Source of the DNA: the human T2T-CHM13v2.0 reference genome, Homo sapiens
Direction: 5' to 3' (one strand)
Length of the DNA: 64,000 bases
NCBI RefSeq assembly: GCF_009914755.1
Contig: NC_060932.1
Shown here: piece after piece, positions 1 to 60,740 of the stretch
Position numbering within the stretch: the first letter of the stretch is position 1
Layout of the letters: every line of letters begins with the position of its first letter
The notes under the pieces: model-generated
What the model was told of the DNA's origin: nothing
Database searches by the model: none
Seen by the model: only the letters and a program-made list of their open reading frames with translations
Made by a program: the position numbers and the translations under genes

Positions 1-335
1 GATTTTTAAAATAAAATTATTACAGGATTATAAGCGAATATTGTTTGACATAGTCACTAAAGCATACTATTAGAATGTTCATCATAAGGCTACTTGCTTC
101 ATGGACTAATGAAAGGACAGCACTGGCTACACACTCAACATGATTTTAGCAAATGAAAAACTAAATTATACATATGATGGTGATGTTTGCCTACGATTAA
201 GAAAAAATCATGCAACCTTTGTTTGATTCCCATGTTTAATTAACAAATATTCTGGCTGGCCTTCACTGTGGTGAGTATAATTCATCTTTCACCTTTACCA
301 TTATGCACCAGCTGTGAAGGGCTAAAGAGACTTAC

Positions 336-408
336 TTTCAAAGTCCAAGAAAAAATGTGCTGCATTGTGGTCTATGTCCCTGGTTAGCACCTTAATGAGA
401 TTACCCAT
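336..408 (-). CDS. CYRIB: Alternative first coding exon of CYRIB/FAM49B (exon 336-418; CDS 408->336), encoding [24 protein letters not shown] + 1 nt
   Basis: Minus strand reads ...ccatttttatttttag|GTTTGCTGGC ATG GGT AAT CTC ATT AAG GTG CTA ACC AGG GAC ATA GAC CAC AAT GCA GCA CAT TTT TTC TTG GAC TTT GAA A|gtaagt. It has a pyrimidine-rich acceptor, a consensus donor and a strong Kozak context (GGCATGG). The peptide matches the CYRI/FAM49 N-terminal pattern MGNL.KVLT...FFLDFE(NAQPT). Confidence 0.88.
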
Positions 409-2875
409 GCCAGCAAACCTAAAAATAAAAATGGCAACATCATTTAGTTCCAGTAAAAAATTTTAAGCAGAGGCCTGGGATTTGGCAAAGGCTGGCTTGC
501 TCATAATTATCAACAGGTGCAGGTTTATATGCTTTTGGCATTGAGAATTTGGAACAACAAAAGCACATTTGGCTCTGAGTTTATAGCTCCTGTCCCTCTT
601 TTCCACATATCAAAAAAGTTACATAAAGCAAGATGGGAAAAAAGATTAGATTTTGACATATAACTTGCAATATTTACATTTTATTACTATCTATGTTAGT
701 GTTACTCCTTTAAAATTTTTGAGGCATATATTTCTCAATTTAACAGCAAAACTAGATTTCTCAAATAAGTAACTATAGAAACCATTTTTTTAAATAATAG
801 GGATATTTTCCTTCTTGCAGAGTCAAATCCTATTGGGAACACAAAGAAGAAAGTATTCAAACCACATTTAACCATTAAAGCCTAAAGAAAGTTATCAATT
901 AATGACCCATCTAAAAAAACTTTACCACACATAAAATGTTTTTGATATCTTCTGTCTCCTAAGATTAATCAAACTTATTATTTAACTCTTAGACTGAATA
1001 ATCAACTATACACAACTATACCATGTATGGAACTTAAAAGTTAACACAGCAAACAGGGAGCCAGCAATTATCACAACTTAGTAGGTTTGCGGAGGACAAA
1101 AAGTGAAAATACGGCATTGGCATAAATGTTGCCCAAGATTTCCATAATGCAGTGAGGATGAAAGTGGGAAATGGGGTCAGAAACATCCAGGAAACCAGGT
1201 TCAAACCTGGAAGGTAGAGTAACAAAAGGGGAGGCAAACTATGGTATCACGGCTACCCACATCCTCCTCCCTCCAACTGCTGTACTTTTCCTCCAATTGC
1301 TATGTGTTTTTCTCCAAAGATCCCGTTGCTGGCAAATGTAAATAAGGCAAAACATAAAACAATATTTTTATTAAGAAAAAAGACAACTTGCCACTCACTC
1401 TCATTATAAGAAGCTTGAAAAAAGTTAGCACTTCCCGTCACCTGTGGCATCCCCCTCTTCCACCTACTCTCCAACATCAGCATATGTTTCTAACTGTAAG
1501 CTTCCCATGAGGAAATACAAATAGCTATTTGCTTTAGAGGTCAAAGTCTGATGTACGGAAACACAAATTTCTTATAAAATGTTAAAAGCAATCCAATTTA
1601 TTCATATATGGTAAGTACTGAATGGTTCTTCCCTTTTGAAACAATATTCCCCCAATGGGGGAGGTGGAGATCTATCTTCTTCTTATATTAACATTTCTAT
1701 TACACAGAATTTCAATGGTCTGATTTTGTACAATACTTTACACAAGTGGATTAGGTGACATTAAGCTAAGAGGGAAATATTTAATATTTTGACTTAATTA
1801 CTGTATACATTGTAAAACATTTAATAATACCAAGCTTTTATATTAAAGGAAAAGATAAACATTTTTCCTAAATCATCACACCCAAATAATTATCTCAAAT
1901 TGGTTACTAAAGTTCTTCAATAGATGTTGGAAGAAACCATTTGGAAATAGCATATTTCACAGCTTTAATTTTTAAAAGCTTTCCAACATATATGGAATGA
2001 CTGTATCCAAACATATATAAATTTTCTCACTAACAAGAACTGAGACCAAATACACAAAAAATTACCTAGTGGTATCAAAATTGCAACTACAGATGAAAAA
2101 TATATCATGAGAAAGGACTATAATTATTTTCAGTAGGAAAAAGGCAGCACACCATTTGGTTTTAGGAGTTTAATCTATGGAATCAAACCAGAAATTCGAC
2201 TCTAGCTTACTAGCTGTTTGACCTTAAGGATGGTAGTTAACCCTTTTGGGGACTCATTTCTTGATTGGTAAAACACAGGTAATTATAGTAAATATCTTAA
2301 ATTCCTATTATGAGGGTTAAATTAGATTAAGCACTGACTCAGTGTCTGGCACACAGAAAACATTTAATAAATATTGGCTGTTGCTGTAATTAAAACCTAA
2401 ATATCACAAAATAACCTTTTAAAAGTAATAATGGCTCTATTTCTTTTAACATAAACCTGAGTCCTTATCAACACATTCCAATGTTATAAATCAGAATGAA
2501 GCCCATATTTATCAAGAATATTGCTGAAATGTCCTAAAATTAGTTCTATTAACATCATCAGGTATGCATGGAGAAGAGGGAGATTAGGTTTCCTTACCTT
2601 TTTACGTGTATGCACACAGTCCAACCTTGGGGAAAATTTTGGAACTAGCCATGTACGTCTGCTCCATTTTCCTACAGCTCGTTCTGTAAACTTCTTCCTC
2701 TGTATATGGTTCTTCTTTCCAGGCACCCGAGGCTAATGTGATCCTCCCCTCCTCATACTTGGGAGTATGACCACTACCATCAGACTTGGTCCTGACCTAT
2801 TTGCTCTCATAAGGATTGAGAATTTCTTGCCTATTTATCCCATACACAAACACTTAGTTTGAAAATGGCTCAGTT

Positions 2876-15702: not shown

Positions 15703-17026
15703 TCATTTTTCTTCATGGTCTGTGCTTACTGTTTAAATAATAATTCTTCAAAATTGCCTTATTCTTGCCCTTTTATTCACTCATGTGATTGTCAAATTCT
15801 ACAAAAAAATTCTGATGGGATTTTGATTTGATTTTGCATTAAATATATAATTGCCATCTCTATAATTTCAATCATTTTGTCATTTAATCTATGAATATGA
15901 CAGATTACATAAATTCATTTTCTGTTGCTAAACCATTCTTGCATTCCTGAGATCAAGTCTGCTTGGTTGGTTATTTATTTATGTATTTATTTATTTATGA
16001 ATAAATGAATGAGGGTGAATGAATAAATTTGAAACACGGTCTTGCTCTGTTGCCCAGGCTGGTCTTGAACTCCTAGGCTCAAGGAAACCTCCTACCTCAG
16101 CCTCCCAAGGTGCTACAACTACAATTACAGGCGTGAGCCACTGCACCTGGTTTATTTGATCATTTAAAAATATATATTCCTAGATTTGGTTTTGCTAACA
16201 TTTCACCTTGGATTATTTTGTAAGACTGACCTGTAATTTTTTTCTCTGTTCCTGTCTGGTTTTGCTGTCAAGCCTATTTTTATACATAGATTTTTCTATT
16301 ATTTAGAACCATTTATAAACAATACAATGTGTCAATTACTCAGTGAGTTTTATAGGAAAGTTCTTCCAAACATCTAAGAAGTCTACATCTGTTTCATTTT
16401 TGAAACTCCAGCCTAACAGACATTCTGTCACACAGCCAGTACTCAATAAATATTTGTCAAATTAATAAATGAACAATTCAAGTAAAAAGCAGCTTATTTA
16501 TCCAAAAAGAGAATACCTAAACTAAGGGCATCCCATAAAAAGAGTAGGTTTAGGTCAAATTAAACAAAGTGCAACTTAATAAATTAGGGACTAAGTTTAT
16601 GGAATAATCCCTTAGTCTTACCTACGAAGGGATAATTCAAATACAAGATCTATAAACATCAAGAAAATCAAGGACAAGGTTAACAGGCAAAGGTTTACTG
16701 CTAAAACATTAAAGCTGGCCTGGACAGCAATGATATTTTCCCACAATACTCTTTACCACCTCTGAGCTAATCTTCAATGGTGTTTCCCATGTTCTTATGC
16801 ATTATCGCAATGAGAGTTCAAATCCTTAAAAATCCTGATGACCAACAGTCATCTTCAGAAGTAGCAATTTTAGTTTTCTGTTTTTGCACAGAGAATAACT
16901 AAGGGCTACAGAGACATTCTCATCCATTACTTATAAACATGCCACCCACCTCCCCAGAGTGAGAGTCTCTGGTGCCTCTTCCAGTCACCAAACAGCAGCA
17001 AAAAAGCAAGGAACTTAAGGACCTAC

Positions 17027-17132
17027 TGCCAAGTAAACAGGCCTTGTGGCAGTGAAAGGATAAACTGTCCATCATTCTTTCTTCTCCTCGGAGATTTCAC
17101 AGGAAAAGGAGAAAGCGCAGGAAACAGGAGGC
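17027..17132 (-). other. Candidate 106-nt cassette 5'UTR exon
   Basis: atttcctttcaattgtag|GCCTCCTGTTTCC...TTACTTGGCA|gtaggt, in non-repeat sequence between the 39-nt exon and the coding exons. Confidence 0.4.
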
Positions 17133-17929
17133 CTACAATTGAAAGGAAATCTGCCAGAATTTGGCATATAGAAGTAAAGTGTCATTCCTAGTCACCTCAC
17201 TATGACTGAAATGGATAAGAGATTCTTAAAAATTGTTCTGCTTTCTCTCATAATTTGAGTTAAAAGATAAGGTATTCTCTGAAGTTAAGTATCCCTTAAT
17301 TTCTGGGGTTGACTAGGGGCTCTTCTCAACACTATAGTCACTGTGAAGAGTGAAAGACAACAGGCAGAATGGCTTTATATCCCATTACCAATAAATAAGA
17401 GAATCTCAGACCAGGAAGGGACCATTCACGGTCAAATGGAAGACTCACCCTTGACTATTTAACCTTAGTATGAATCTATTCTACAACATATCCACACCAA
17501 GTAGCCATCTCACCACTGCTTAAATACTCTACATGACTTAAATTTTAGACTTTGGTCAATTTTTAGAAAAATTTGTAGAAACTTAAGACAATGACTGAAT
17601 AAGCACAATTAAGACATGAATTCTACCCTCGAAAACCATACAATCCTTGTATTAAACTGAAATTCACCCATTTGTTAACATCTCCTCCTTGGTTTAAATT
17701 CTCTTTGGCCTCCTAGAAATAAACTAAACACAATCCCTGTGCTACTTAACAAACCATTAAATATATGAAGTATCTTACAACAACAGTCAAATGAGGTCAA
17801 AATAAAGTTACCCATCAGATTATGTATGTTCACATTTGCAAAGGTACAAACAAGACATCTCCTATCTAGTAATGCCAGCCAAGAATTTAGCTTCTGAGTA
17901 GAGTTTATAAGTGATTTTCTAGGTAGGGA

Positions 17930-22917: not shown

Positions 22918-23590
22918 GATGAGCTAGTTTTGAAAAAATATACTCTGTTTATAACTAAGAAGAACACGGAAAGGGATTTTAAGCTAGTCATTTTCACTTA
23001 AGAACACAAAATCTGCCTGTAAAAAAAATTACATTTTGAATACTTAATAACTTGTTATAATTAAAACAACTGCAGGATTACAAATGTTTCAGTACTCAGG
23101 ACCCTTTAACAGTAACTACCTTTTATGGTAACGATTCTTTGTTTCTAAAAAATTTTTTTTTAAAAAAAGGACCAAAACCAGTAACAGATAGAATTCTTAA
23201 GATTATGTGTAAAGTGTCTTCCCTTCTGTTTTCAATGAAAAAAAATATATATGTACACATATATACTTTAAACTACTAAAATTATGGCTTAGAACTTTCT
23301 TGATCAACTATACTGGTGACAGCTAAAATGACTTAATTCAAAGGAAAACACATACCTCTCCTAAAGAAAGAAAGCTGTTAAAAAAAGTTCTAATTAATTT
23401 ACATTTTCCCCACCAGGTCCTATTCTAAGCCAAAAACTAAACAATCAATATTTCCTAACAACATTTTTAGCAACTCAATATTGTGTATAGAACATTTCCC
23501 TTAAATTATATATAGTTAATATAAGTTTTTATTGAAATCATAACTTTTCATTTATATTTGAATAATCATTTCCCCCAAAGACATATTTAC

Positions 23591-23629
23591 CTTCAGCCAG
23601 TGCTGGTGATTCTGTCCTTGTCCTTCTAT
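23591..23629 (-). other. CYRIB: 39-nt 5'UTR exon of CYRIB
   Basis: ttttttctttccttaaacag|ATAGAAGGACAAGGACAGAATCACCAGCACTGGCTGAAG|gtaaat. Canonical splice sites; matches the recalled FAM49B mRNA segment just upstream of the ATG exon. Confidence 0.88.
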
Positions 23630-24479
23630 CTGTTTAAGGAAAGAAAAAAAGGAAGAAAGTCTAAAACATTATTATACTTTAAAACAAGTTTTTATTACAG
23701 TTAACTTTAAAGTTTACGAATGCCATCATGCACGTGCACATTTTATACATACACACATATATTTATTTATTTCCTTGGATTAACTCAACCACCATTTATG
23801 GAGGACCTATTTAGAGTAAGGCATCATATTAAGCCCTGGAAACAACAATAGGTAAGACAACCCAGTTGTCACCGTCAACATACTCAGAGAGTAAAAAGTG
23901 TACGAAGACAAGTACACAATTCTCATCATAGCTTATTAAGCAAAGGGTAAGAAAAGGAAAGTTAGTTATTCCTCTTTAGTCTTACAGCAGGGGCCTAAAA
24001 CTATGAAAAGAGGCATATTTATATTTCTTATCACAGTTTAAGTTCATTCAGTTTCAATGTATTAATAATCAGTTTTACTCAAGGTATTAAAATCCTTATT
24101 CCGTGACCATAACCTATTATTTGCCAGGGACACATTTGGCAAAATTCAAGTGAACCACAAAGCCCTCTCTAGGATTGGTTTTATTATTTCACTCATTCAT
24201 TCATTCATTTCTGCAGAGAGAGGGTCTCGCTATTTTGCTCAGGCTGGTCTCCAATTCCTGGTGCTCAAGTGAGCTTCCTGCTTTGGCCTCCCATAGTGCT
24301 GGGATTACAGGCATCAGCCACCATGCCGGGCTTGGTTTTACTATTTCAAACACACAATTTTAGGTAAAATGGAATCTTCAGAATGAGTATAACTTTGCAA
24401 ATAAGGTTATAAGAAGCAAATAAAGACATTAACCCCTTGGAGAAGAAGGTATGGATCACTCTATCAGGAAAAAGCCTCA

Positions 24480-31990: not shown

Positions 31991-33254
31991 ACAACAGCAA
32001 TAATGCTGTTTTCAATTATGAAAAACCTGAGGCAAGGGCTAAATTAAAAGGCTCACCAGGCTTTGAGGACATTATACAGAACCTTCTTACTTCTGGATCT
32101 CCTGGTTACTGTCAATATCTTGCCCTGATTACTGACCATCTACAATGGGACTTTTCTGATACTTCAACTCAGCTAAGTTTTGGAACATACAGCCATGGAG
32201 AGACTGTAAAATGCATTTTTGATGGCAGGTGCTGCAATCGTGCTAACCTAAAGATTCCACAGGTTTAAGATACGTTCTGTGAAAACAAGTAAGTACCTTA
32301 TTTTGCAGCTCTATAAGCTCAAACTCTGTAAAATTAAATGCTAGTTAAAAGAAAGAATTTTTAGTGTTCATTTAATCTACCCCACATGTTCAAACCCCCT
32401 TATAACATTTACACACATAATTTTAAAGGAATGGTAAATACAAACAGAGGTAATAACATAAGGCAAATAAAGCTTTACAGTTTATATATATACACGCTCC
32501 AAATTTACCCCAGGTTCGATTTCATAAAAGATCAAATAGTTGAATTTATACATCCTGCTAAATATATATATATATGCTCCAAAATTATCTGAAGTTGCAA
32601 ACTGCACTAGCACTGAAATGACCATTCCTTCCAGCTTCTCACCTGCTTCACCACTCCCCCAGTACCACTCTCTCCACCTCTAGTCCAATGCTGCAGTTAT
32701 CTGAAATTACAAAGTTTTTTTTTTTTTTTAATTATGACCAAGTTTGGCTTACCTGAGAAGTGCAAGGTTGGTTCAGAATACCTACTGTTTTCACCACCCT
32801 AACAGATTAAAAGAAAAAAGCCATATAATTACCTCAAAAGATGCACAGATGCACTCTGGGGTTGGGGGAAGGGGAGGACTGGGAACAGAGAAGGTGCATT
32901 TCAATGAAAACAAAGACTTGGGTTTTTTAAATTTGCCTTTATTTTTATTTTTTTATTTTAGAGACAGGGTCTTATTAGGATGCCCAGGCTGGGGCTTTCT
33001 TTTCTTGCAAGTCATTTTTTTTTCAAACAATTCTATATGATAATCAACAGGATGAACTAATGAAGGCATATTAAAGAGTGGTTCAGGTAAAATGATTCAG
33101 TGAATTCCTAATCTGTGTGTCATGTTTACGGTGACAGAAAACAAGTGTGTTCCCTACTGCTGTTAAAGTTATCTCTACTGCTGATAAATTTAAATACAAA
33201 GCGCAAAAGTGAATCCTACAATGCAATACCATGACTTTCAGGAATCTGCTTCAC

Positions 33255-59379: not shown

Positions 59380-60740
59380 CCGCGCAGGTGGAAGGCGAAG
59401 TGATGGGGAGCGATAAAGACACCAACTTCAAAACCAGGGACCAGGAGGGCTGGGTGTCGAGGCGAGGCGAGGCGAAGCCCGGGGGATAAGGGGGTGTGGA
59501 GCTGGGGACGGGAACAGGGGATGAGGAGAAAAAGCGGCCGCGAAGAGGAAGGAGTGGTGGGAGCCAGGATTGGGGAGGGGGGACAACGCCGACACGGGAA
59601 GGGACGAGCCAACGAGCCAGGAGTCACTGGCGGGCGCAGGATCTGGGGTGGGAGGGGGCGGCGAGAGCGCGCGTGGAGGTGCCAATGGAAGGAAGGGGGC
59701 GGAAGAAAGGAAGACCCGAATGAATGAGCGCCGGGGGCAGGCCGGGGCCGCGGGGCCACAGAGGAAGCGGGCCCGGGGCGTCGCGGGGCCGGGGGCGGGC
59801 CCAGCGCGCCTGGAAAGGAGGAAGCCCCGCGCCAGCGCGGGCCCCGCCGCACCCGCCTCTTCGCCAAAATGGGGTCGCAGAGCAGGAAAGCTAGGAGTGT
59901 GAAGGAAGAGGGGAAAATGGCAAAAACCAATCACTCACCCTCCGCTCGAGCCTCCAGGCGCTCTCAGTCCCGCTCCTGCGCCCTCCTGGAGCCGCAGAGG
60001 CGGCTCCTCAGCGGCGCTAGGGGGAGCCCCGGGTCCGGAGCGGGGGAGCGGCGGCAGCCGGACCGGGAGCCCCTCAACACCTGCCCCTGTGGCAGAGCCG
60101 CGACAAGCCAGGCGGCAGCTCCGAGCGGGGAGGGCAAGTGACCCGGATGTACAGGGTAACGACGGGGAGGGGGAGGAGGGAATGCCAGGAAGTGAGGGCG
60201 CCGCGGACCTGTCCGGCCGTGCGCATGCGCCGCACGCCCGCCCCGCAAGGTAAATCCTTAGCCTATCTTCTCCGCCCCTCATCCCCGCCCCTCCCGAAGG
60301 GGCGGGGCGAAGCCAGAGACAGGTGGTCGGCGGGCGCGGCGTGCAGAGGAAGGAGGCGTGGCCACCCCCTTGCACCCCGGCCTCCTTAAAGGGGCAGCAC
60401 CTTCGCAAATATCGCGCCGAGATAGCTTCTGAGTGGGTTGGGGTCTTCCAGCCTTCCAGATGTACAGATGGGAAACGGAGGTTCAGAGGTGGCGGTGACC
60501 TGCCTCTTGTCAGCGGGCTTGGAAATGGCAGGAACTGGACCTCGGGACTCGATGCTGAGCCCTGCGAAGTTGCCATATTCCCCCCACGCCTGGAACCGCT
60601 AGGCTGCGGGCGCGCCTCTCCCCTTTGGGTCAGGTACTGAGCCTCGCCCGCGATTCCCGGCGCGGCACGTGTTCCTGGCAGGCGCCCAGCGCCAGGAGAC
60701 TGTACTGTTACCGCCTGCGATGGTATCGCGGAGACGCCCT
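59380..60740. promoter_or_regulatory. CpG-island promoter of CYRIB
   Basis: Abrupt rise in GC and CpG content. NRF1-type TGCGCATGCGC at 60220-60230, ETS-type CAGGAAGTG at 60186-60194 and CCGGATGT at 60143-60150, GC boxes at ~60283 and ~60299-60308. No obvious TATA box. Confidence 0.9.
59939..60195 (-). other. CYRIB: Non-coding exon 1 of CYRIB (5' boundary approximate)
   Basis: GC-rich and inside the CpG island; ends ...GCTCGAGCGGAGG|gtgagt (consensus donor at 59938-59933); no ATG on the minus strand. Confidence 0.8.

What the first reader, a model, noticed from the sequence alone, without database searches (positions are those of the whole stretch)
336..418. Tandem-duplicated alternative start exon of CYRIB giving a CYRI-A-like, Cys10-less N-terminus
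Seen: an 83-nt exon with strong splice sites, 10 nt of UTR, a Kozak ATG and 73 coding nt (phase 1), encoding [24 protein letters not shown]; it is too short for the ORF track. Recalled: canonical CYRI-B starts [29 protein letters not shown] and CYRI-A starts [28 protein letters not shown]. CYRI proteins bind active RAC1, oppose WAVE-complex activation and are Gly2-myristoylated; Cys10 of CYRI-B is a proposed palmitoylation site. Inference: this is an old exon duplicate of identical residue count and phase, used mutually exclusively with the canonical exon expected just left of the window. It would swap the membrane-targeting segment (myristate plus possible palmitate versus myristate only). 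It may already be annotated as a minor isoform; I know of no functional study but cannot check.
Basis: partly seen in the sequence, partly recalled or inferred. Interest (0 to 1): 0.88.

Follow-up and report, generated by a model that had tools for sequence, protein, structure and literature searches.

The report
Known alternative start exon of CYRIB
This is a real, very old second start exon of the human actin-regulator gene CYRIB, already annotated and mentioned in print, which swaps a short stretch near the protein's front end and removes the cysteine where a fat molecule can be attached.

Summary
On the minus strand, window 336-418 is an 83-nt exon: AG acceptor, 10-nt leader, GGCATGG start, 73 coding nt, GTAAGT donor. 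It encodes [24 protein letters not shown]. The canonical start exon lies 904 nt downstream, outside the window at -569..-651, with the same 10+73 nt layout. Including both exons gives a stop after 11 more codons, so productive mRNAs carry one or the other.

It is not new. RefSeq annotates it (hub table). Genes 2022 cloned "isoform 3" from HEK293T cells. NAR 2021 calls it a homologous 5' CDS conserved in sharks and missing from GENCODE.

- The peptide is identical (24 of 24) in birds and mammals and 23 of 24 in sharks. The whale-shark CYRI-B crystal 6YJJ carries it.
- The exon is closer to the CYRIA start exon (62 of 80 nt) than to its neighbour (47 of 83).
- Both exon types occur in all three vertebrate CYRI paralogue clades and in lampreys, so the pair predates the gene duplications.
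- Acyl-RAC data mark Cys10 of the canonical exon as S-acylated, and this exon has no cysteine.

The proposed lipid-anchor switch is plausible but untested.

The parts
336..418 (-). Alternative ('R-type') start exon of CYRIB, 83 nt: 10-nt leader plus 73 coding nt. Encodes [24 protein letters not shown] and the first base of codon 25.
   Evidence: hub RefSeq table; PDB match; identical peptide in 13 of the 16 named proteins fetched.
406..408 (-). Start codon in the context GGCATGG. Gly2 follows it, the residue where N-myristoylation of CYRI-B was shown.
   Evidence: Myristoylation of Gly2 was shown for CYRI-B by click chemistry in the Fort et al. preprint 10.1101/164905 (passages).
409..418 (-). 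10-nt leader GTTTGCTGGC, 9 of 10 identical to the leader of the CYRIA start exon on chromosome 2.
   Evidence: Its in-frame reading 'FAG' precedes the Met in bird, whale and pipefish gene models.
419..448 (-). 3' splice site: pyrimidine-rich tract (…gttgccatttttattttt) and AG at 420-419.
330..335 (-). 5' splice site GTAAGT (consensus).
1..335 (-). The in-window part of the 904-nt intron that separates this exon from its partner. The partner lies OUTSIDE the window at window -569..-651 (genome C8:131005349-131005431). It is the canonical ('C-type') start exon, also 83 nt: leader GTACCTTAAC plus 73 coding nt, [24 protein letters not shown] with Cys10. Its acceptor is gacag|G and its donor is gtgaga. 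The report form takes no coordinates under 1, so the partner exon is described in this row.
   Evidence: loci L001, L003, L008.
23591..23629 (-). Upstream non-coding exon of the selected RefSeq transcript. Its donor is the likely partner of either start-exon acceptor.
   Evidence: Hub RefSeq table only; junction use was not testable here.

Best explanation
Window 336-418 (minus strand) is the functional alternative first coding exon of CYRIB (FAM49B), giving RefSeq isoform 3 (324 aa). It is one half of a tandem pair of homologous 83-nt start exons 904 nt apart, used in a mutually exclusive way. Each exon carries its own leader, ATG and 24 codons and ends in phase 1. Including both puts a stop 11 codons into the second exon. 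The pair is older than the vertebrate CYRI gene family. The 'R/K-type' exon (this one, and the only start exon I found for human CYRIA) and the 'C-type' exon (the canonical CYRIB one) both occur in the CYRI-B, CYRI-A and 'CYRI-A-like' clades and in lampreys.

The swap changes residue 5 and residues 10-18. In the whale-shark crystal, residues 10-18 form the loop between helix alpha1 and helix alpha2. The flanking residues stay the same: MGNL-KVLT on one side and FFLDFE on the other.

Inferred mechanism: both isoforms are Gly2-myristoylated, but only the C-type has Cys10, which can also be S-acylated. Isoform 1 would therefore be doubly lipid-anchored and sit stably on membranes. Isoform 3 would have myristate only and bind membranes transiently, as CYRI-A does.

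Shown: exon anatomy, homology, frame logic, deep conservation and exon-type distribution. [quoted passage not shown] Inferred: that the exon choice sets acylation and membrane dwell time. My odds: real coding alternative exon about 0.95; pair predating the paralogues about 0.75; lipid switch as the main functional difference about 0.5.
For: Anatomy.

Same length and phase, 47 of 83 nt and 14 of 24 aa identical; joint inclusion reads ...FLDFE-STLTWGIFLKF-stop.

Conservation:
- 13 of the 16 named proteins fetched carry the identical 24-aa peptide (4 birds, 9 mammals). Callorhinchus has 23 of 24.
- PDB 6yjj (Rhincodon typus CYRI-B per PMC7543656) has 23 of 24.
- Bird gene models P0009 and P0010 hold both exons in the order R then C, and each exon is identical to the human one.

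Orthology of exon types:
- Alternative exon versus CYRIA exon: 62 of 80 nt, leader 9 of 10. Versus the canonical exon: 47 of 83 nt, leader 4 of 10.
- A whole-genome search with the peptide finds only itself and the CYRIA exon.

Trees built on residues after the start exon (45 rows):
- B clade: 5 R-type and 8 C-type of 13.
- A clade: 5 R-type and 11 C-type of 16.
- Third clade: 6 K-type and 4 C/Y-type of 10.
- Same-taxon or same-class pairs are identical downstream: Callorhinchus P0038/P0075, Anser P0141/Anseriformes P0169, whale P0018/human P0063.
- Lampreys: Petromyzon P0377 is C-type and Lampetra P0144 is K-type.
- Five unnamed genomic read-throughs hold a CYRIA-type R exon followed by a C exon.

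Literature:
- Isoform 3 (324 aa, start in 'exon 12' versus 'exon 14') was recovered as an equal-length RT-PCR clone, and a residual ~37 kDa band remained in an exon-14 knockout (PMC8872254 passages).
- 'Homologous 5' CDS conserved in sharks' (PMC8373072 passage).

Lipid switch:
- Acyl-RAC peptide [27 protein letters not shown] carries carbamidomethyl on its Cys, which is Cys10 (PMC9004782 supplement). In that design the tag marks previously palmitoylated cysteines.
- Fam49b is listed with the number 10 in a frequency table of palmitoyl-proteome hits (PMC5468251).
- Cys10 is present in 9 of 12 C-type variants (49 of 54 proteins) and in 0 of 15 R/K-type variants.
- P16-GFP-CYRI-A is dynamic (50-100 s) while P17-GFP-CYRI-B is 'much more stable' (PMC8236918).
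Against: - No transcript or junction data could be examined here. Mutual exclusivity and expression rest on RefSeq and on one paper in one cell line.
- Isoform 3 appears to be minor in HEK293T ('a small amount'). Tissue use is unknown.
- The Acyl-RAC evidence is one peptide row (plus protein-level list entries) in a supplement. That method also tagged disulfide-forming cysteines in the same study. No CYRI paper I read mentions palmitoylation: 0 occurrences.
- Cys10 is not universal in C-type exons: it is Tyr10 in the sauropsid third paralogue and absent in P0201. The K-type exon of the third paralogue has a Cys15, so 'C-type means acylated, R-type does not' is not a clean rule across the family.
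- GFP inserted in this loop preserved function, so the loop tolerates change.
- The pre-duplication origin rests on cluster representatives and gene models that I selected. Exon conversion between paralogues is not excluded.
Confidence: 0.55

Rival explanations
1. The exon swap matters through the protein loop itself, not through lipidation. Residues 10-18 (the alpha1-alpha2 linker) would tune packing of the N-terminal amphipathic helix, dimer autoinhibition, or a partner contact. Cys10 acylation would be incidental.
For: - The changed residues map to the alpha1-alpha2 loop in the full-length shark structure (PMC7543656).
- CYRI proteins form autoinhibited dimers whose regulation is unknown (PMC7955166).
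- Both loop versions are frozen over more than 300 My (24 of 24 between human and birds for each). That is more constraint than one cysteine needs.
- Cys10 is replaced by Tyr in some C-type exons.
Against: - GFP inserted after P16/P17 in this loop still rescued function.
- The loop lies outside the RAC1 interface.
- Site-level capture of Cys10 by Acyl-RAC.
Confidence: 0.25
2. The exon acts mainly as a dosage regulator. When spliced in together with the canonical exon, its strong upstream ATG opens a 35-codon frame that overlaps and blocks the canonical start and ends in a premature stop. That would lower CYRI-B output, with possible nonsense-mediated decay.
For: - Joint inclusion gives a stop 11 codons into the canonical exon.
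- The alternative ATG has G at -3 and G at +4.
- Both exons have good splice sites.
- One low-quality bird CYRI-A model (Rhynochetos, P0165) reads the R-type exon followed by part of a C-type sequence (LLKVLTC), suggesting both exons in one model.
Against: - Amino-acid-level conservation of the peptide: 24 of 24 in birds, 23 of 24 in sharks.
- It serves as the N-terminus of the crystallised shark protein.
- One teleost CYRI-B subclade shows only R-type starts (10 of 10 rows).
- An equal-length isoform 3 clone was recovered.
All of these point to a translated product.
Confidence: 0.1
3. A decayed or unused exon copy that RefSeq models include by prediction only.
For: It was absent from GENCODE as of the 2021 paper and from the tandem-exon and mutually-exclusive-exon material I could search. 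The selected RefSeq transcript skips it (hub table).
Against: Intact frame, consensus splice sites, deep peptide identity, RT-PCR clone and residual protein.
Confidence: 0.02

Closest known systems
CYRIB (FAM49B) RefSeq isoform 3, as described in Genes 2022 (PMC8872254) and noted in NAR 2021 (PMC8373072)
   Same: It is the same object: 324 aa, differing from isoform 1 only within the first 25 residues, with the start codon in an exon upstream of the canonical one; a homologous 5' CDS conserved in sharks.
   Different: Nothing differs in the object itself. Those papers do not discuss Cys10 or lipidation, the relation to the CYRIA exon, or an origin before the paralogues split (in the passages I saw).
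Start exon of human CYRIA (chromosome 2; L002)
   Same: Same exon type: 62 of 80 nt identical, leader 9 of 10 identical, GTAAGT donor, phase 1, Arg10 followed by an acidic residue, no cysteine.
   Different: It is one codon shorter (23 aa). It is the only start exon I found for human CYRIA. No C-type partner appeared in 21.5 kb downstream or genome-wide, although birds, frogs, coelacanth, teleosts and sharks have one.
Rhincodon typus CYRI-B crystal structure (PDB 6YJJ/6YJK; PMC7543656)
   Same: Its N-terminus is the R-type peptide, 23 of 24 identical to this exon. It is therefore in effect a structure of the isoform-3-type N-terminus, with residues 10-18 forming the alpha1-alpha2 loop.
   Different: It is a shark protein. 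The authors compared it with human isoform 1 and read the 10-18 differences as poor conservation, rather than as a comparison of different alternative exons.
N-terminal tandem-exon-duplication substitutions catalogued in human genes (for example ATE1, ASIC1 and ASIC2 in the PMC8373072 supplement)
   Same: Homologous adjacent exons of matching phase that substitute for each other and are ancient.
   Different: CYRIB is not in that catalogue (0 hits, controls found). It is mentioned only in the Discussion as unannotated in GENCODE. Here each copy also carries its own leader and start codon.

Membership tests
CYRI/FAM49 protein (Pfam PF07159, DUF1394) start exon | Met-Gly-Asn N-terminus (Gly2 myristoylation site) and the FFLDFE motif at the exon end | tested here: met
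   peptide; both motifs are shared with PDB CYRI-B chains and with all vertebrate variants tallied.
CYRI/FAM49 protein (Pfam PF07159, DUF1394) start exon | The peptide continues in frame into the rest of a DUF1394 protein | tested here: met
   In 10 of the 13 exact carriers fetched the peptide runs directly into [12 protein letters not shown].... The database's precomputed Pfam label is PF07159 for 12 of the 13 (all but P0016). The human next exon reads ...AQPTESEKE near window -8543. I did not run a Pfam scan myself.
Tandem-duplicated, mutually exclusive homologous exon pair | Two adjacent exons, same strand, same length and phase, detectably homologous | tested here: met
   83 nt each, 10+73 layout, 904 nt apart, 47 of 83 nt and 14 of 24 aa identical.
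Tandem-duplicated, mutually exclusive homologous exon pair | Joint inclusion is non-productive | tested here: met
   Read from the first ATG, the joined exons give a stop after 11 extra codons. The intron is long (904 nt), so steric exclusion does not apply. Both introns are GT-AG.
Tandem-duplicated, mutually exclusive homologous exon pair | Mature transcripts carry one exon or the other | not testable with these tools
   No RNA data here. Literature: an equal-length RT-PCR clone with 'exon 12' in place of 'exon 14', and a 324-aa RefSeq isoform 3 (PMC8872254).
Tandem-duplicated, mutually exclusive homologous exon pair | Both copies conserved under coding constraint | tested here: met
   Each peptide is 24 of 24 identical between human and birds (P0009, P0010). 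Both types occur in Callorhinchus CYRI-B. Nucleotide-level tests (PhyloCSF, dN/dS) were not possible.
Dual-lipidated (N-myristoyl plus S-acyl) versus myristoyl-only N-terminal switch | Gly2 in both isoforms, and a nearby cysteine in only one | tested here: met
   Cys10 in 0 of 15 R/K-type variants and in 9 of 12 C-type variants.
Dual-lipidated (N-myristoyl plus S-acyl) versus myristoyl-only N-terminal switch | The cysteine is actually S-acylated, and this changes membrane behaviour | not testable with these tools
   Literature only: Cys10 peptide captured by Acyl-RAC in mouse brain (PMC9004782 supplement); CYRI-B is more stable on membranes than CYRI-A (PMC8236918). No isoform-specific experiment was found.

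The most novel reading that the evidence does not exclude
The CYRIB start-exon pair is a surviving copy of a lipid-anchor switch more than 450 million years old, present before the vertebrate CYRI paralogues split and before lampreys diverged. One exon gives a myristoyl-plus-palmitoyl (Cys10) anchor with long membrane residence. The other gives a myristoyl-only anchor that depends on RAC1 for transient recruitment. Lineages then sorted the pair differently. Human CYRIA shows only the R-type. The two teleost CYRI-B subclades sampled show one type each. Human CYRIB kept both. [quoted passage not shown] That isoform escapes guides and reagents aimed at the canonical exon and was missing from GENCODE in 2021.
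Probability: 0.35. Interest if true: 0.55.

Novelty: already known. Interest (0 to 1): 0.33.

Why it matters
The exon itself is annotated and mentioned in print, so the finding as stated is not a discovery. It still has practical weight for people who work on CYRI proteins.
- Knockouts or guides placed in the canonical start exon leave isoform 3 intact, as seen in HEK293T.
- The published statement that residues 10-18 are poorly conserved compares different alternative exons. Each version is in fact almost invariant.
- The exon choice offers a simple, testable explanation for stable versus transient membrane binding within the family.
- The locus carries a splicing QTL that colocalises with Parkinson's disease risk. 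Which junction it affects I could not check.

Tried and rejected
- Competing RNA structures as the exclusion mechanism. An inverted-repeat scan of the 3-kb region around both exons gave 15 short pairs; the best perfect ones are 12 nt. One pair (I10) joins the region just upstream of the canonical acceptor to a site about 380 nt upstream of the alternative exon. My rough estimate is that perfect 12-mers are expected by chance in 3 kb of AT-rich sequence, and no other species' DNA was available to test conservation. No conclusion.
- A C-type exon remnant in human CYRIA. A whole-genome peptide search found none. A permissive tblastn over 21.5 kb downstream of the CYRIA start exon gave only short hits at E of 0.01 or worse. 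That stretch did not reach the next CYRIA exon, so the intron was not fully covered.
- A literature search for the peptide strings gave 0 papers.
- The broad palmitoylation search was unspecific and gave nothing on CYRI.
- Tandem-exon and mutually-exclusive-exon sources: 0 hits for CYRIB or FAM49B in the held supplements of PMC9741552, PMC8373072 and PMC5740500, and 0 in the main texts of PMC9741552 and PMC5740500. Only some supplementary files are held.
I used the window's 46-aa open read-through instead.
- Structure and complex prediction were not run. A solved shark structure already shows the R-type N-terminus, and a model would not settle lipidation.
Full report
**Observation.** Read on the minus strand, window 448-326 is a pyrimidine-rich tract ending in AG, then the exon, then GTAAGT. 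The exon is GTTTGCTGGC ATG GGT AAT CTC ATT AAG GTG CTA ACC AGG GAC ATA GAC CAC AAT GCA GCA CAT TTT TTC TTG GAC TTT GAA A. It spans 418..336 (83 nt), with a 10-nt leader, an ATG at 408-406 in the context GGCATGG, and 73 coding nt ending in phase 1. Translation gives [24 protein letters not shown] (P0001). The hub's RefSeq table lists 336-418 as an exon of non-selected CYRIB transcripts.

**It is a CYRI start exon, not a chance frame.** A search of solved structures returned 2 distinct sequences at E up to 10.
- The chain of 6yjj/6yjk, named CYRI-B (FAM49B), matches 23 of 24 residues, E 1.2e-10.
- The chain of 7ajk carries the canonical N-terminus and matches 14 of 24, E 0.22.

Passages of PMC7543656 show that the crystallised protein is whale shark (Rhincodon typus) CYRI-B. 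[quoted passage not shown]

**The partner exon.** The window's genome is held. A script over 46 kb to the left of the window (loci) found one more MGN start on the minus strand, with its ATG at window -579. Read directly and measured, this is the canonical exon at window -569..-651.
- Its acceptor is ...cttgtcttgacag|G and its leader is GTACCTTAAC.
- It encodes [24 protein letters not shown] plus one base, and its donor is gtgaga.
- It is also exactly 83 nt with the 10+73 layout.
- The intron between the two exons is 904 nt.
- The exons share 47 of 83 nt (43 of 73 coding) and 14 of 24 residues. The differences are at residue 5 and residues 10-18.
- Joined in one mRNA and read from the first ATG, they give ...FLDFE-STLTWGIFLKF-stop. 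A transcript with both exons therefore cannot make full-length protein from the upstream start.
- The next coding exon (…AQPTESEKE…) lies near window -8543.

**Already known.** Passages of PMC8872254 (Genes 2022) describe four RefSeq protein isoforms. Isoforms 1 and 3 both have 324 aa and differ only within the first 25 residues. Isoform 3 starts in 'exon 12' and isoform 1 in 'exon 14'. In a HEK293T line mutated in exon 14, the authors recovered an RT-PCR clone of unchanged length that matched exon 12, and they saw a small residual band of about 37 kDa. [quoted passage not shown] It adds that none of three earlier studies reported it and that it was not yet in GENCODE. The gene is absent from that paper's catalogue table: 0 hits, while control genes ATE1, TPM1 and SCN8A were found. 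It is also absent from the held supplements and main texts of PMC9741552 and PMC5740500.

**Conservation.** The peptide alone was too short for the protein search. I therefore used the window's 46-residue open read-through (P0002). This gave 57 proteins at E up to 10 among 58 candidates. I fetched the 16 that carried organism names.
- 13 hold the identical 24-residue peptide: Melospiza, Columba guinea, Columba livia, Phasianus, Saguinus, Camelus, Eschrichtius, Balaenoptera, Pteropus, Tupaia, Cricetulus, Smutsia and Galeopterus.
- Callorhinchus has 23 of 24.
- The other two are other paralogues: Nerophis CYRI-A, and an Egretta protein annotated CYRI-B whose start exon is of the third-clade type.
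- Two bird gene models (P0009, P0010) read through the genome and contain both exons in the order found in human. Each exon is identical to the human peptide.

The unnamed hits at 100% identity over the read-through look like vertebrate DNA in metagenome-derived protein sets. I did not use them as evidence of conservation.

**Which exon is like what.** A six-frame search of the human genome with P0001 found only itself and the CYRIA start exon on chromosome 2 (78% identity). The canonical peptide likewise found only itself and, weakly, that CYRIA exon. At the DNA level:
- Alternative exon versus CYRIA exon: 62 of 80 aligned nt, and 9 of 10 in the leader.
- Alternative exon versus the canonical exon 1 kb away: 47 of 83 nt, and 4 of 10 in the leader.
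- Canonical exon versus CYRIA exon: 48 of 80 nt.

**Age of the pair.** I collected homologues with a whale isoform-3-type protein (P0018).
- The word-indexed search gave 1915 proteins at E up to 1e-20 among 4710 candidates, with 120 listed.
- The representative library gave 1942 at E up to 0.001, with 150 listed.
- A third search, centred on a C-type exon from an unnamed CYRIA-type read-through, gave 113 of 115 candidates.

I extracted every recognisable start-exon peptide. I then built trees only from the residues after the start exon, so the exon itself cannot drive the grouping. Rows were chosen by me from proteins with a recognisable start exon and a long enough remainder. The many N-terminally different gene models without such an exon (for example P0074 and P0076-P0099) were left out. 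In the 45-row tree (quick IQ-TREE, SH-aLRT support only) three gnathostome clades appear:
- CYRI-B: 13 rows, support 86, with 5 R-type (TRDID…) and 8 C-type (TCTDLEQ…).
- CYRI-A: 16 rows, support 93, with 5 R-type (TREIENYPH or similar) and 11 C-type (TCTEL[ED]QGPN, TCTEFDQGPN). The C-type rows include Molothrus, Nanorana, Latimeria, five teleosts, Callorhinchus and Scyliorhinus.
- A 'CYRI-A-like' clade of sauropsids and fishes: 10 rows, support 99, with 6 K-type (GKDLENCPH) and 4 C/Y-type (TYNELDQGPN, TYNDLEQGPN, ACAELEHGPI).

Pairs with identical or zero-distance downstream sequence but different start exons occur in Callorhinchus CYRI-B and in Anser/Anseriformes (third clade), and the whale R-type row (P0018) is identical downstream to the human C-type row (P0063). 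Five unnamed genomic read-throughs hold a CYRIA-type R exon followed by a C exon in one frame (P0012, P0013, P0316, P0317, P0320). Lampreys show both types: Petromyzon P0377 has a C-type peptide identical to the human canonical one, and Lampetra P0144 is K-type. These have different downstream sequence, so they are probably different genes.

C-type exons from different genes resemble each other far more than they resemble the R-type exon of their own gene. The simplest reading is one exon duplication before the paralogues split. Conversion between paralogues is not excluded.

In the larger 71-row tree, teleost CYRI-B falls into two subclades. One has 8 of 8 C-type rows and the other 10 of 10 R-type rows. 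This looks like partition of the pair between gene copies, though cluster representatives could hide minor isoforms. In human CYRIA I found no C-type exon (the intron was only partly covered).

Non-vertebrate representatives are variable. Several have Ser/Thr/Ala followed by Arg/Lys and then Asp/Glu after the first helix (P0202, P0234, P0196). This weakly favours the R/K pattern as the older one.

**How it probably works.** Both isoforms keep Met-Gly-Asn, and Gly2 myristoylation was shown for CYRI-B by click chemistry (preprint 10.1101/164905, passages). The swap is confined to the end of the amphipathic helix and the linker, and it removes Cys10.

Evidence bearing on Cys10:
- In the supplement of PMC9004782, the mouse brain Acyl-RAC peptide table lists [27 protein letters not shown] of FA49B with carbamidomethyl on its cysteine.
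- In that design free thiols are blocked first, and carbamidomethyl marks cysteines that had carried an acyl group.
- The same study also found such marks on cysteines that form disulfides, so the tag is not fully specific.
- In PMC5468251 a frequency table of palmitoyl-proteome hits lists Fam49b with the number 10.
- Across the sequences tallied before the last search, Cys10 is present in 9 of 12 C-type variants (49 of 54 proteins) and in 0 of 15 R/K-type variants (105 proteins). The regular expression missed the ACAELEHGPI variants, which also have Cys10.
- Exceptions: Tyr10 in the sauropsid third paralogue, no Cys in P0201, and a Cys15 in the K-type exon of the third paralogue.

PMC8236918 reports that loop-tagged CYRI-A (R-type N-terminus) flashes on macropinocytic cups for 50-100 s from a diffuse pool. 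Loop-tagged CYRI-B (C-type) is 'much more stable' on tubules and vesicles, and the authors note a possible difference in membrane kinetics.

Putting these together, I propose that the C-type exon gives a dual lipid anchor and long residence, and that this R-type exon gives a myristate-only, transient anchor. This step is inference. None of the CYRI papers I searched mentions palmitoylation, and no isoform-specific experiment was found.

**What enforces exclusivity.** The sequence shows only this much. The intron is too long for steric exclusion. Both introns are GT-AG. Joint inclusion is non-productive from the first ATG. Skipping both exons removes the normal start; some predicted models in other species do this and start upstream (P0085, P0077). 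A scan for complementary intronic segments gave only chance-level pairs. Whether regulated factors choose the exon cannot be addressed here.

**Verdict.** The feature is already annotated and already described in print as a shark-conserved homologous 5' exon.
- the exact anatomy of the pair;
- the closer kinship of this exon to the CYRIA start exon;
- evidence that the pair predates the vertebrate CYRI paralogues, with later sorting between gene copies;
- a literature-supported but untested link to Cys10 acylation.

In searches I found no paper making the last three points. The library is limited, and bioRxiv and PDF supplements were not visible.

Noticed in passing
window 409-418; L002 (CYRIA exon leader); window -569..-578: The 10-nt untranslated leaders are conserved. 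The alternative exon's GTTTGCTGGC is 9 of 10 identical to the CYRIA leader on another chromosome. Read in frame, it appears as 'FAG' before the Met in bird, whale and pipefish CYRI-A gene models. The canonical leader reads 'YLN' in both human and bird models. The reason for constraint on a 10-nt leader is unexplained (start context, splicing enhancer, or something else).
   Followed up: partly
PDB 6yjj versus window 336-408: The statement in PMC7543656 that residues 10-18 are poorly conserved between shark and human CYRI-B compares a shark R-type N-terminus with the human C-type one. Compared like with like, the shark peptide is 23 of 24 identical to the human alternative exon.
   Followed up: yes
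proteins P0109-P0139 (teleost CYRI-B), tree: The two teleost CYRI-B subclades each show only one start-exon type (8 of 8 C-type, 10 of 10 R-type). This suggests the exon pair was divided between gene duplicates. It is based on cluster representatives only.
   Followed up: partly
proteins P0138, P0141, P0150, P0168, P0169, P0172, P0174 and others: A third vertebrate CYRI clade (annotated 'CYRI-A-like', or as CYRI-A in birds and fishes) has the start exons GKDLENCPH and TYNELDQGPN/ACAELEHGPI. No mammalian member appeared in my samples. In sauropsids its C-type exon has Tyr10 while its K-type exon has Cys15.
   Followed up: partly
window 17026-17133, 23589-23633, 32748-32798, 59959-60144: N-terminal extensions of predicted 'isoform X1' models (human P0063; macaque P0077) are encoded by these upstream exons. 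In P0063 they read in frame through the canonical leader into the normal Met. Mouse and macaque predicted models (P0085, P0077) skip both start exons. These extended forms would lack an N-terminal Gly2, so they are probably prediction artefacts or non-myristoylated forms.
   Followed up: partly
CYRIB locus as a whole: PMC10705658 cites a splicing QTL in FAM49B/CYRIB (monocytes, microglia) that colocalises with Parkinson's disease risk.
   Followed up: no
CYRIB locus: An EST-based study (PMC2941758, table) lists FAM49B with a cassette exon specific to normal CNS. The exon is not identified in the passage, and it could be this one.
   Followed up: no
proteins P0003-P0008, P0014: Unnamed proteins from metagenome-type sources match at 93-100% identity over most of the query (67-98%), intronic flanks of this human exon included. 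This suggests that vertebrate host DNA is translated as ORFs in such collections.
   Followed up: no
L002, L009, L010 (human CYRIA, 21.5 kb downstream of its start exon): No remnant of a C-type start exon was found in human CYRIA, although birds, a frog, the coelacanth, teleosts and sharks have one. It was probably lost in the mammalian lineage. The intron was not fully covered.
   Followed up: partly
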